Shown here: positions 1 to 464 of the stretch, in pieces
Numbering within the stretch: the stretch's first letter is position 1
Layout of the letters: each line of letters opens with the position of its first letter
Origin: Escherichia coli
GTDB taxonomy: Bacteria > Pseudomonadota > Gammaproteobacteria > Enterobacterales > Enterobacteriaceae
Strand: one strand, 5' to 3'
Assembly (NCBI RefSeq): GCF_003334355.1
Contig: NZ_QOWP01000106.1
Length of the DNA stretch: 464 nt
Notes under the pieces: generated by a model
Databases searched by the model: none
Told to the model about the DNA's origin: nothing
Seen by the model: only the letters and a program-made list of their open reading frames with translations
Position numbers and translations under genes: made by a program

Positions 1-63
1 ATGACTGGGGTGAAGTCGTAACAAGGTAACCGTAGGGGAACCTGCGGTTGGATCACCTCCTTA
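1..63 (+). rRNA. rrs: 16S ribosomal RNA, 3'-terminal fragment (5' part lies upstream of the window)
   Basis: Seen in sequence: universally conserved 16S 3' end GTCGTAACAAGGTAACCGTAGGGGAACCTGCGGTTGGATCACCTCCTTA. The anti-Shine-Dalgarno core CCTCC is at 56-60 and the mature 3' end ...CCTTA is at 63. The helix-45 GGAA loop is at 37-40, with adjacent adenines 39-40 matching E. coli A1518/A1519. The 5' boundary is truncated by the window. Confidence 0.95.
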
Positions 64-131
64 CCTTAAAGAAGCGTTCTTTGAAGTGCTCACACAGATT
101 GTCTGATGAAAATGAGCAGTAAAACCTCTAC

Positions 132-208
132 AGGCTTGTAGCTCAGGTGGTTAGAGCGCACCCCTGATAAGGGTGAGGTCGGTGGTTCAAGTCCACTCAG
201 GCCTACCA
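132..208 (+). tRNA. ileT/ileU/ileV: tRNA-Ile, anticodon GAT (GAU), with encoded 3' CCA
   Basis: Cloverleaf readable by hand. The 7-bp acceptor stem is 132-138 (AGGCTTG) paired with 198-204 (CAGGCCT), including one G-U pair. The anticodon loop CTGATAA has GAT at 166-168. The T arm is GGTGG (181-185), loop TTCAAGT, CCACT (193-197). Discriminator A205 and CCA at 206-208. The paralog cannot be resolved from this window. Confidence 0.97.
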
Positions 209-225
209 AATTTGCACGGCAAATT
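209..225 (+). other. Small A/T-rich hairpin in the tRNA-Ile to tRNA-Ala intergenic spacer
   Basis: AATTTGC (209-215) pairs with GCAAATT (219-225) around the 3-nt loop ACG. Alternatively a 6-bp stem with a 5-nt loop. It starts immediately 3' of the tRNA-Ile CCA end. Confidence 0.25.
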
Positions 226-250
226 TGAAGAGGTTTTAACTACATGTTAT

Positions 251-326
251 GGGGCTATAGCTCAGCTGGGAGAGCGCCTGCTTTGCACGCAGGAGGTCTG
301 CGGTTCGATCCCGCATAGCTCCACCA
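251..326 (+). tRNA. alaT/alaU/alaV: tRNA-Ala, anticodon TGC (UGC), with encoded 3' CCA
   Basis: The acceptor stem is 251-257 (GGGGCTA) paired with 316-322 (TAGCTCC) and contains the G3-U70 wobble (G253-T320), the classical alanyl-tRNA synthetase identity element. The anticodon stem is CCTGC (277-281) / GCAGG (289-293), with loop TTTGCAC and anticodon TGC at 284-286. T loop TTCGATC, discriminator A323, CCA at 324-326. Confidence 0.97.
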
Positions 327-352
327 TCTCTGTAGTGATTAAATAAAAAATA

Positions 353-386
353 CTTCAGAGTGTACCTGCAAAGGTTCACTGCGAAG
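353..386 (+). promoter_or_regulatory. Imperfect stem-loop with GCAA tetraloop directly upstream of boxA; boxB-like element of the spacer antitermination region (tentative)
   Basis: Hand-folded. The outer stem pairs 353-356 (CTTC) with 383-386 (GAAG) and 359-362 (AGTG) with 377-380 (CACT), separated by a 2x2 mismatch. The inner stem pairs 364-367 (ACCT) with 372-375 (AGGT), closing the GNRA-type loop GCAA at 368-371. A hairpin followed by boxA is the arrangement in rrn leader and spacer regions. Confidence 0.4.
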
Positions 387-389
387 TTT

Positions 390-402
390 TGCTCTTTAAA
401 AA
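390..402 (+). promoter_or_regulatory. Spacer boxA-like transcription antitermination element (binding site for the NusB/NusE-containing antitermination complex)
   Basis: The motif TGCTCTTTAAAAA at 390-402 matches the rrn boxA core GCTCTTTAACAA at 11 of 12 positions, and lies in the expected place between the spacer tRNAs and 23S. The call rests on the motif alone. Confidence 0.6.
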
Positions 403-430
403 TCTGGATCAAGCTGAAAATTGAAACACT

Positions 431-448
431 GAACAACGAAAGTTGTTC
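431..448 (+). other. Perfect 7-bp hairpin with GAAA tetraloop in the distal spacer (probable precursor-rRNA structural or processing element)
   Basis: GAACAAC (431-437) is the exact reverse complement of GTTGTTC (442-448), closing a GNRA tetraloop GAAA at 438-441. A T430-G449 wobble could extend the stem. Function is not determinable from sequence. Confidence 0.3.
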
Positions 449-464
449 GTGAGTCTCTCAAATT

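What the first reader, a model, noticed from the sequence alone, without database searches (positions are those of the whole stretch)
1..464. Window is an rrn operon 16S-23S spacer of the tRNA-Ile/tRNA-Ala class; multi-copy locus, operon copy unresolved
The 16S 3' end followed by tRNA-Ile(GAU) and tRNA-Ala(UGC) defines the Ile/Ala spacer type, which in E. coli K-12 is found in rrnA, rrnD and rrnH (the other operons carry tRNA-Glu). Such regions are near-identical repeats, so the window may be a collapsed or mis-placed assembly segment. Small inter-copy differences in the spacer are the only way to assign the copy. Apart from that, this is an ordinary, well-described locus and not a novel system.
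Basis: partly seen in the sequence, partly recalled or inferred. Interest (0 to 1): 0.3.

Follow-up and report, generated by a model that had tools for sequence, protein, structure and literature searches.

The report
E. coli rRNA operon Ile/Ala spacer
The window is the ordinary, textbook stretch between the 16S and 23S ribosomal RNA genes of Escherichia coli that carries the tRNA-Ile and tRNA-Ala genes; it is a well-described multi-copy locus and nothing new.

Summary
The window holds the last 63 nt of 16S rRNA, tRNA-Ile(GAU) at 132-208 and tRNA-Ala(UGC) at 251-326. It also holds the spacer boxB/boxA antitermination signals and the first 71 nt of the pre-23S leader fragment that Rfam calls StyR-44.

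It is 100% identical to many complete E. coli genomes, and all 5,426 genomes searched have a match.

The copy question can be refined. Within MG1655 the window matches only rrnA (4037010-4037473). It differs from rrnD at 2 sites and from rrnH at 4. In other strains the identical 464 bases sit in rrnH or rrnD. The copy therefore cannot be assigned without knowing the source strain.

The worry about mis-assembly cannot be tested on 464 bases. A public MAG contig labelled Desulfovibrio does carry exactly this segment as an assembly chimera.

Verdict: already known, low interest.

The parts
1..63 (+). 3' end of 16S rRNA (16S nt 1480-1542), including helix 45 and the anti-Shine-Dalgarno CCTCC at 56-60
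   Evidence: Rfam SSU_rRNA_bacteria, model positions 1471-1533 of 1533, 61 bits, E=5e-17. Identical to rrsA, rrsD and rrsH over this stretch, and base 63 is the annotated rrsH end.
69..110 (+). Trailer strand of the pre-16S leader-trailer helix (the RNase III processing stem). It pairs with leader nt -131 to -89, about 1.7 kb upstream and outside the window. The part opposite leader boxC (UCUGUGUGGG, -118 to -109) is window 88-97.
   Evidence: Cofold of the rrnA leader with window 64-113 gives a ~40-bp duplex of -59.3 kcal/mol. blastn also finds window 85-110 complementary to the leader in rrnB, C, E and G. Warner et al. 2023 (PMC10250234) map the critical pairs to leader -113 to -89 with 16S nt 1548-1570, which is window 69-91. 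They state that the RNase III site overlaps boxC.
78..84 (+). Two of the four copy-discriminating SNPs in K-12: window 78 is T (A in rrnD and rrnH) and window 84 is A (C in rrnD and rrnH). The other two are 338 (A; G in rrnH) and 437 (C; T in rrnH).
   Evidence: Alignment of the window with the three MG1655 Ile/Ala spacers. In the cofold, position 84 is bulged in both alleles. Position 78 pairs in both alleles by a one-base register shift in the leader, with -100 A or -99 T. In rrnH, 437 C to T turns a C-G pair into U-G in the 431-448 hairpin.
132..208 (+). tRNA-Ile(GAU) gene (ileT in K-12 rrnA), with CCA encoded at 206-208
   Evidence: ARAGORN; Rfam tRNA 66.3 bits; annotated ileT, ileU and ileV in NC_000913.3.
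207..227 (+). Perfect 9-bp hairpin (CAAATTTGC-ACG-GCAAATTTG) that starts in the last two bases of the tRNA-Ile CCA, within the 42-nt inter-tRNA spacer (209-250). Its role was not tested; a local pre-tRNA processing context is an inference.
   Evidence: Inverted repeat I2, 100% complementary. The fold of 205-250 gives -9.5 kcal/mol, z = -2.45. Klebsiella keeps the stem with a different loop, and Salmonella replaces the element with an extra 71 nt, so it is not essential across enterobacteria.
251..326 (+). tRNA-Ala(UGC) gene (alaT in K-12 rrnA), with CCA encoded at 324-326
   Evidence: ARAGORN; Rfam tRNA 65.6 bits; annotated alaT, alaU and alaV.
352..387 (+). Spacer boxB-like stem-loop immediately upstream of spacer boxA
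   Evidence: The fold of 350-405 gives -15.5 kcal/mol, z = -2.82. The position fits the published statement that rrn boxB and boxA occur in both leader and spacer (PMC6614797). The element is conserved, with small changes, in Salmonella and Klebsiella.
390..402 (+). Spacer boxA (TGCTCTTTAAAAA; core UGCUCUUUA at 390-398), the NusB/NusE loading site of the rrn antitermination complex for 23S transcription
   Evidence: One mismatch to the leader boxA TGCTCTTTAACAA, with 0 matches in 200 shuffles. The leader boxA is seen in all seven K-12 leaders. Consensus and role are from PMC6614797 and PMC10250234. Window 388-464 is shared at 98.7-100% identity with the four tRNA-Glu-type spacers.
394..464 (+). 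First 71 of 107 positions of Rfam StyR-44, the spacer segment just upstream of 23S rRNA. It contains the hairpin 430-449 (GAACAAC-GAAA-GTTGTTC core). The element continues 38 nt beyond the window, and 23S starts 46 nt after the window end.
   Evidence: Rfam RF01830, 81.5 bits against a gathering score of 54, E=7e-13, cut at the 3' end. The full-length match in L010 ends 7 nt before the Rfam 23S start. The describing paper places StyR-44 upstream of 23S in all seven operons and cannot exclude a metastable processing intermediate (PMC2943607). In Klebsiella the hairpin is kept with a different sequence, ACACAC/GTGTGT.

Best explanation
The window is a piece of an Escherichia coli (or Shigella) ribosomal RNA operon: the 3' end of the 16S gene and most of the 16S-23S internal transcribed spacer of the tRNA-Ile/tRNA-Ala class.

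It works as part of one long pre-rRNA transcript:
- Just after the 16S end, window 69-110 pairs with the leader sequence about 1.7 kb upstream. This forms the long leader-trailer helix that is needed for 30S assembly and is cut by RNase III to release pre-16S RNA.
- The two tRNAs are excised from the spacer. The enzymes named by established knowledge are RNase P at the 5' ends and endo- and exonucleases at the 3' ends; this was not tested here.
- A second boxB-boxA signal at 352-402 reloads or maintains the Nus-factor antitermination complex so that RNA polymerase reads through 23S.
- The last 71 bases begin the pre-23S leader, which continues beyond the window to the 23S RNase III stem. This fragment can be detected as the metastable RNA StyR-44.

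In K-12 MG1655 the exact sequence is rrnA, 4037010-4037473. In other strains the same allele occupies rrnD or rrnH. I take this to reflect gene conversion among rrn copies, so the operon copy depends on the strain.

Shown here: the identity and position of all elements, the leader-trailer duplex, and the copy distribution. Inferred from the literature: the processing enzymes, the antitermination function, and gene conversion as the cause of allele shuffling.
For: - ARAGORN and Rfam call the 16S end, both tRNAs and StyR-44, with E-values from 1e-13 to 1e-17.
- The window is 100% identical over 464/464 bases to many complete E. coli genomes. All 5,426 genomes have a match, and 5,408 have a place covering at least 80% of the query.
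- MG1655 annotation gives rrsA-ileT-alaT-rrlA, and the equivalent order in rrnD and rrnH; rrnB, C, E and G carry tRNA-Glu.
- The exact match in MG1655 is in rrnA only.
- The leader-trailer duplex folds at -59 kcal/mol, with window 69-91 pairing to leader -89 to -112. This is the critical region mapped by mutagenesis in PMC10250234.
- Spacer boxA has 1 mismatch to the leader boxA and 0 matches in 200 shuffles. The boxB-like hairpin has z = -2.8.
- The same allele occurs in rrnA, rrnD or rrnH in eight sampled strains.
- The measured rrn gene-conversion rate is 3.6e-4 per genome per generation (PMC8022953).
Against: Nothing contradicts it. Four limits apply:
- The source genome is unknown, so neither the operon copy nor the replicon is established.
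- The 23S gene and the 16S leader lie outside the window, so their presence is inferred from every exact-match locus, not from the window itself.
- One exact match lies in a chimeric MAG contig labelled Desulfovibrio, so an exact match does not by itself prove an E. coli genome of origin.
- A scan of GTDB species representatives with a 68-mer from the window returned no Escherichia representative. This is unexplained.
Confidence: 0.97

Rival explanations
1. The window comes from a mis-assembled or mis-binned contig (a collapsed rrn repeat, or a chimera joined inside conserved 16S sequence) rather than from a correctly placed chromosomal copy. The sequence would still be the E. coli Ile/Ala spacer, but its stated genomic or taxonomic context would be wrong.
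For: Contig USBZ01000017.1 ('uncultured Desulfovibrio sp. UMGS1580') holds the whole window exactly. Its first 11.7 kb have no match in any of 5,426 E. coli genomes and run at ~56% GC. Its 16S is 57-92% identical to E. coli per 100 nt up to about nt 805, then essentially identical to K-12 rrnA (two mismatches, both in the 23S part) through the spacer and into 23S. PLSDB also lists 6.5-20 kb 'plasmids' consisting of rrn fragments, and 4.8-5.4 Mb 'plasmids'.
Against: Thousands of closed E. coli chromosomes carry the same sequence in a normal operon context, so the prior favours a genuine copy. The window shows no junction or discontinuity, and it is colinear with rrnA over all 464 bases.
Confidence: 0.1
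2. Window 394-464 encodes an independent, trans-acting small RNA gene (StyR-44) rather than simply being part of the pre-23S leader.
For: The Rfam StyR-44 hit is above the gathering score. The describing paper detected a growth-rate-regulated ~109-nt RNA on northern blots in S. Typhi and E. coli (PMC2943607).
Against: No promoter-like or terminator-like site is found in the window. In L010 the element begins within spacer boxA and its Rfam match ends 7 nt before the 23S start. From my own knowledge, not checked in a paper here, RNase III cuts at about that distance from the 23S 5' end, so the 3' end fits a processing product. The authors state it is processed from longer precursors and may be a metastable intermediate of rRNA maturation.
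Confidence: 0.05
3. The window sits on a plasmid or secondary replicon rather than on the main chromosome.
For: The 404-kb record pMTY18781-1_IncX3 of E. coli TUM18781 carries proS..gmhB-rrnH-dkgB..mltD with an exact copy of the window. Fourteen of 44,429 places in the complete E. coli genomes are on plasmids.
Against: 44,415 of 44,429 places are chromosomal. Most large 'plasmid' hits in PLSDB are chromosome-sized records.
Confidence: 0.01
4. One of the short ORFs that overlap the window (for example 173-346 +, 57 aa, or 236-436 -, 66 aa) encodes a protein.
For: These ORFs are listed mechanically.
Against: They overlap the two tRNA genes and the boxB/boxA region, inside a non-coding pre-rRNA transcript. 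They start with GTG or TTG. No annotation in any of the fetched records places a CDS here.
Confidence: 0.01

Closest known systems
E. coli K-12 MG1655 rrnA 16S-23S spacer (rrsA 3' end - ileT - alaT), NC_000913.3 4037010-4037473
   Same: Identical at all 464 positions, with the same order and spacing of the 16S end, tRNA-Ile(GAU), tRNA-Ala(UGC), boxB/boxA and the pre-23S leader.
   Different: Nothing within the window. The same allele is not specific to rrnA in other strains: it sits in rrnH in E2865, 120899 and TUM18781, and in rrnD in ECCHD184 and NCCP15648.
E. coli K-12 rrnD and rrnH spacers (ileU-alaU, ileV-alaV)
   Same: Same architecture and length within the window. The tRNA genes, boxA and 16S end are identical.
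   Different: rrnD differs at window 78 (T to A) and 84 (A to C). rrnH differs at those two sites plus 338 (A to G) and 437 (C to T). In the predicted folds the changes at 78, 84 and 437 do not break pairing. Position 338 was not assigned to any structure.
E. coli tRNA-Glu-type spacers (rrnB, rrnC, rrnE, rrnG)
   Same: They share window 1 to about 110 (16S end plus trailer strand, 96.6-99.1%) and 388-464 (boxA plus pre-23S leader, 98.7-100%).
   Different: Window 111-387 (tRNA-Ile, tRNA-Ala and their flanks) is replaced by a single tRNA-Glu(UUC) segment.
Rfam RF01830 StyR-44 (Salmonella Typhi npcRNA 44)
   Same: Window 394-464 matches model positions 1-71 at 81.5 bits (gathering score 54), including the conserved hairpin. 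The location upstream of 23S in every rrn operon matches the original description.
   Different: Only the 5' two-thirds lie inside the window. The evidence favours a processing by-product of the pre-rRNA, not a separate gene.
Salmonella enterica and Klebsiella pneumoniae Ile/Ala spacers
   Same: Same gene order. The 16S end and both tRNAs are invariant. BoxA through window 427 and the last 14 bases (451-464) are also invariant. The intervening hairpin region (428-450) varies, mostly in Klebsiella.
   Different: Salmonella has an extra 71 nt between the tRNAs in place of the 207-227 hairpin. Klebsiella changes the hairpin loop and shortens the spacer by 6 nt. Overall identity is 96% and 91%.

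Membership tests
Bacterial rrn operon 16S-23S spacer, tRNA-Ile/tRNA-Ala class | Mature 3' end of 16S rRNA immediately upstream, on the same strand | tested here: met
   Rfam SSU match to model positions 1471-1533 at window 1-63, E=5e-17. Base 63 is the annotated rrsH end, and rrnA, rrnD and rrnH are identical over window 1-63.
Bacterial rrn operon 16S-23S spacer, tRNA-Ile/tRNA-Ala class | tRNA-Ile(GAU) followed by tRNA-Ala(UGC) in the same orientation within the spacer | tested here: met
   ARAGORN: 132-208 with anticodon gat and 251-326 with anticodon tgc, both on the + strand. Rfam tRNA 66.3 and 65.6 bits.
Bacterial rrn operon 16S-23S spacer, tRNA-Ile/tRNA-Ala class | 23S rRNA gene downstream of the spacer | not testable with these tools
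   The window ends 45 nt before the 23S start, so this cannot be seen in the window itself. In all nine exact-match loci examined, 23S sequence follows. It is annotated as 23S, and called by Rfam in L010. In L009 the plasmid gene table lists no RNA genes, but the same spacer end and 23S start are read directly after the window.
Bacterial rrn operon 16S-23S spacer, tRNA-Ile/tRNA-Ala class | Trailer sequence complementary to the 16S leader (leader-trailer helix, RNase III stem) | tested here: met
   Window 69-110 pairs with leader -131 to -89 of rrnA, -59.3 kcal/mol. This coincides with the critical pairs mapped in PMC10250234.
Bacterial rrn operon 16S-23S spacer, tRNA-Ile/tRNA-Ala class | Spacer boxA (UGCUCUUUA core) preceded by a boxB-like hairpin | tested here: met
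   TGCTCTTTAAAAA at 390-402, with 0 matches in 200 shuffles. Hairpin at 352-387, z = -2.8. Consensus from PMC6614797.
Specific operon copy rrnA | Sequence matches rrnA and no other copy of the source genome | tested here: inconclusive
   Met for K-12 MG1655, where the match is exact to rrnA only, with 2 mismatches to rrnD and 4 to rrnH. In other strains the identical allele lies in rrnH or rrnD. The source strain is unknown.
Rfam RF01830 StyR-44 | Covariance-model score at or above the family's gathering score | tested here: met
   81.5 bits against a gathering score of 54 at window 394-464, model positions 1-71 of 107, cut at the 3' end by the window end. Full-length 124.9 bits in L010.
Rfam RF00005 tRNA | Cloverleaf covariance-model score above the gathering score, full-length match | tested here: met
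   Two matches to model positions 1-71 of 71, at 66.3 and 65.6 bits against a gathering score of 29.

The most novel reading that the evidence does not exclude
The spacer fragment that begins at boxA (window 394 onward, StyR-44) is more than a by-product of pre-23S processing. It would be a stable, growth-rate-regulated RNA produced from all seven operons with a trans-acting function of its own, for example titrating Nus factors or RNase III. My evidence does not exclude this; it only shows that the fragment's ends fit processing sites and that it has no promoter or terminator of its own.
Probability: 0.05. Interest if true: 0.35.

Novelty: already known. Interest (0 to 1): 0.05.

Why it matters
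It matters only in practice. The segment is a near-identical repeat: three full-length and four partial copies per E. coli genome. Its allele moves between operons in different strains. A 464-base piece therefore cannot be placed on a genome by sequence alone, and short-read or metagenome assemblers can collapse it or mis-join it, as the chimeric 'Desulfovibrio' contig shows. There is no new biology here. Every element (16S end, leader-trailer helix, tRNA-Ile, tRNA-Ala, spacer boxB/boxA, pre-23S leader) is described in the literature.

Tried and rejected
1. Protein coding. Eight ORFs of 20-66 aa are listed. All overlap tRNA genes or the boxB/boxA region inside a non-coding transcript, and none is annotated in any fetched record. 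Rejected.

2. Internal promoter or terminator. None was found on either strand.

3. Weak Rfam hits on the minus strand (HPnc0260, OxyS, Plastid-ycf2). All are far below their gathering scores with E of 0.27-0.62, and two simply mirror the tRNAs. Rejected as chance.

4. Compensatory covariation between the polymorphic sites 78 and 84 and the 16S leader. The leader is invariant at the paired positions in all seven K-12 operons. Position 84 is bulged, and position 78 stays paired by a register shift. The SNPs are therefore structurally neutral, not compensated.

5. Taxonomic range by exact scan of GTDB representative genomes. A 68-mer scan returned only two MAG contigs and no Escherichia representative, so it gave artefacts rather than a range.

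6. The plasmid collection. Most hits are mislabelled chromosomes or small rrn-only assembly fragments. One 404-kb replicon carrying chromosomal genes is recorded under things noticed in passing.

7. Counting how many copies within each non-K-12 strain are exact. The search tool lists only the best place per record, so only one operon per strain was seen.

Full report
**What is in the window.** ARAGORN finds tRNA-Ile (anticodon GAT) at 132-208 and tRNA-Ala (anticodon TGC) at 251-326, both on the + strand. Rfam covariance models give four strong matches:
- Bacterial SSU rRNA, model positions 1471-1533 of 1533, at window 1-63 (61 bits, E=5e-17).
- Two full-length tRNA matches (66.3 and 65.6 bits).
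- StyR-44 (RF01830) at 394-464 (81.5 bits against a gathering score of 54), cut off at its 3' end by the end of the window.

The remaining Rfam matches have E of 0.27-0.62, lie far below their gathering scores, and are chance.

**Source and copy number.** Megablast against 5,426 complete E. coli genomes finds a match in every genome, with a median of 8 places per genome. At least the 30 records listed match at 100% over all 464 bases, and the best place is at least 99% identical in 5,084 of the 5,435 records with a match. The annotations under the hits are 16S rRNA, tRNA-Ile and tRNA-Ala.

The eight places are the seven rrn operons plus alaX. This tRNA-Ala(GGC) gene shares a 28-base word with window 250-277 and is 91% identical over 77 nt.

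In NC_000913.3 the Ile/Ala arrangement is annotated in three operons: rrnH (ileV, alaV), rrnA (ileT, alaT) and rrnD (ileU, alaU). The other four operons, rrnB, rrnC, rrnE and rrnG, carry gltT, gltU, gltV and gltW, all tRNA-Glu.

The tRNA-Glu-type spacers share only window 1 to about 110 and 388-464 with the window. Window 111-387 is specific to the Ile/Ala class.

**Which copy.** Within MG1655 the window is an exact match only to rrnA, at L002 position 2511, which is NC_000913.3 4037010-4037473. rrnD differs at window 78 (A for T) and 84 (C for A). rrnH differs at those two sites plus 338 (G for A) and 437 (T for C).

This does not hold across strains. The identical 464 bases lie in different operons:

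| Operon (flanking genes) | Strains |
|---|---|
| rrnH (gmhB ... dkgB) | E2865, 120899, and the TUM18781 404-kb replicon |
| rrnD (yrdA ... yhdZ) | ECCHD184, NCCP15648 |
| rrnA (hemG ... mobB) | 300709, AMSCJX02 |

All of these were verified as exact matches. Just 3' of the window, two alleles that differ by a 9-nt indel combine freely with the window allele and with operon position.

This mosaic pattern is what frequent gene conversion among rrn copies would produce. The measured rate in E. coli is 3.6e-4 per genome per generation, and conversion of the 16S-23S spacer has been shown experimentally (PMC8022953). Attributing the pattern seen here to gene conversion is my inference.

The conclusion is that the copy can be assigned only if the source strain is known. 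For K-12 it is rrnA.

**How the pieces work.**

- *Leader-trailer helix.* Window 69-110 is the trailer strand of the pre-16S leader-trailer helix. Cofolding it with the rrnA leader gives a duplex of about 40 bp (-59.3 kcal/mol) between window 69-110 and leader -89 to -131. Warner et al. 2023 showed by truncation and compensatory mutagenesis that pairs between leader -113 to -89 and 16S nt 1548-1570 are the critical part. With 1542 equal to window 63, that region is window 69-91. They also showed that the helix is essential for active 30S formation and that the RNase III site overlaps boxC (PMC10250234). Leader boxC (TCTGTGTGGG, -118 to -109) pairs with window 88-97 in my fold.
- *The two SNPs in the helix.* Sites 78 and 84 fall inside this critical region, but in the predicted fold they are structurally neutral. 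Position 84 is bulged in both alleles. Position 78 pairs with leader A-100 (T allele) or T-99 (A allele). The leader does not change at the paired positions in any K-12 operon.
- *Antitermination signals.* The spacer boxA, TGCTCTTTAAAAA, is at 390-402. It has one mismatch to the leader boxA and no match in 200 shuffles. It is preceded by a boxB-like hairpin at 352-387 (z = -2.8). The literature places a second boxB-boxA set upstream of 23S, where NusB/NusE and the other Nus factors modify RNA polymerase against Rho-dependent termination (PMC6614797; PMC10250234).
- *StyR-44.* Window 394-464 is the 5' two-thirds of StyR-44. In a locus that contains the whole element, the Rfam match ends 7 nt before the Rfam 23S start. 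The describing paper places it upstream of 23S in all seven operons, says it is processed from longer precursors, and cannot exclude a metastable maturation intermediate (PMC2943607). Its hairpin (431-437 / 442-448) keeps pairing in rrnH (C-G becomes U-G at 437). It is replaced by a different complementary pair of arms in Klebsiella.
- *Hairpin at 207-227.* This perfect 9-bp hairpin overlaps the CCA end of tRNA-Ile. Klebsiella keeps it with another loop. Salmonella replaces it with an extra 71 nt, so it is not a conserved requirement. Any role in tRNA 3' processing is only an inference.

No promoter-like or terminator-like site is found. The short ORFs overlap RNA genes and are not credible.

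**The assembly concern.** Nothing in the 464 bases can show whether the window was collapsed or misplaced; it is colinear with rrnA throughout. The concern is still realistic.

A scan of GTDB species-representative genomes with a 68-mer spanning the inter-tRNA spacer found two MAG contigs. One is USBZ01000017.1, labelled 'uncultured Desulfovibrio sp. UMGS1580', and it contains the whole window exactly. Three observations show that it is a chimera:
- Its first 11.7 kb have no megablast match in any of the E. coli genomes.
- That part runs at about 56% GC.
- Its 16S gene is 57-92% identical to E. coli per 100 nt up to about position 805. From there it is essentially identical to K-12 rrnA (two mismatches, both in the 23S part) through the rest of 16S, the whole spacer and 746 nt of 23S, to the contig end.

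This is an assembly chimera joined inside a conserved block of 16S. The plasmid database likewise contains rrn-only 'plasmids' of 6.5-20 kb and chromosome-sized 'plasmids'.

**Comparison with what is known, and verdict.** All defining features of the Ile/Ala-class rrn spacer that can be tested in the window are met. The one that cannot, the 23S gene downstream, holds in all nine exact-match loci examined. The sequence is identical to a reference-genome locus whose elements are individually described in the literature.

Novelty: already known. Interest: very low. The only added value is practical. The copy is rrnA in K-12 but depends on the strain, and this segment is a proven source of chimeric contigs.

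**Unresolved.** The GTDB scan returned no Escherichia representative. The number of exact copies per genome in strains other than K-12 was not counted.

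Noticed in passing
L010 (USBZ01000017.1) 11755-14492; window copy at 13238-13701: A 39-kb contig of a MAG labelled 'uncultured Desulfovibrio sp. UMGS1580' is an assembly chimera. The upstream 11.7 kb is not E. coli. The first ~800 nt of its 16S are foreign. The rest of 16S, the whole Ile/Ala spacer and 746 nt of 23S are essentially identical to E. coli K-12 rrnA (two mismatches). The MAG's 16S-based taxonomy and rRNA content are therefore contaminated.
   Followed up: yes
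L011 (JAEYXZ010000048.1) 4252-6006: A 6-kb contig of a 'Bacillota bacterium' MAG carries an array of eight tRNA genes. Its last 151 nt are 96% identical to window 180-330 (tRNA-Ile 3' part, inter-tRNA spacer, tRNA-Ala), including an exact 68-mer. No 23S or 16S similarity follows. It could be a chimeric contig end, a mis-binned enterobacterial contig, or a mobile tRNA array.
   Followed up: partly
L009 (NZ_AP023206.1, pMTY18781-1_IncX3) 1-16464; window copy at 8001-8464: A 404-kb circular record called a plasmid in E. coli TUM18781 carries a block of core chromosomal genes (proS, tsaA, rcsF, metQIN, gmhB, the whole rrnH operon, dkgB, yafC, yafD, mltD). This suggests a chromosome segment captured on, or co-integrated with, an IncX3 replicon, or else a mis-assembly. 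proS is an essential gene.
   Followed up: partly
Plasmid collection hits H32-H44, H50: PLSDB contains 'plasmid' records of 4.8-5.4 Mb that hit the window at 8-9 places each, so they are chromosomes. It also contains 6.5-20 kb 'plasmids' from blood isolates (CP088634.1, CP088631.1, CP088766.1, CP088420.1) that carry the rrn spacer. These are most likely unplaced rrn repeat contigs labelled as plasmids.
   Followed up: no
1-20 nt after the window end (L002 2975 onward; L012-L016 4965 onward): Two alleles of the pre-23S leader lie immediately 3' of the window: ...CAACACGATGATGAATCG[A/C]AAGAAACATC... and a version 9 nt shorter, ...CAACTCTGAAGTGAAACATC.... They occur with the same exact window allele and in different operons (rrnA, rrnD, rrnH) in different strains, a mosaic pattern consistent with short-tract gene conversion.
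   Followed up: partly
window 207-227 and alignment A1 columns 208-300: The perfect 9-bp hairpin overlapping the tRNA-Ile CCA end keeps its stem but has a different loop in Klebsiella (ACG to GAA). In Salmonella it is replaced by an extra 71 nt. Its function, if any, is not described in the papers I read.
   Followed up: partly
window 250-326 versus L019 (NC_000913.3 2518041-2518231, alaX/alaW): The eighth megablast place per E. coli genome is alaX, a tRNA-Ala(GGC) gene, which is 91% identical to the window's tRNA-Ala(UGC). It is seeded by a 28-nt word that includes the base before the tRNA. alaW lacks that base and is found only by blastn.
   Followed up: yes
Genome-contig scan: An exact 68-mer from the inter-tRNA spacer was not reported in any Escherichia or Shigella species-representative genome of the GTDB collection, although it is present in the great majority of complete E. 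coli genomes. Either the representative assembly has a variant or the collection is incomplete there.
   Followed up: no
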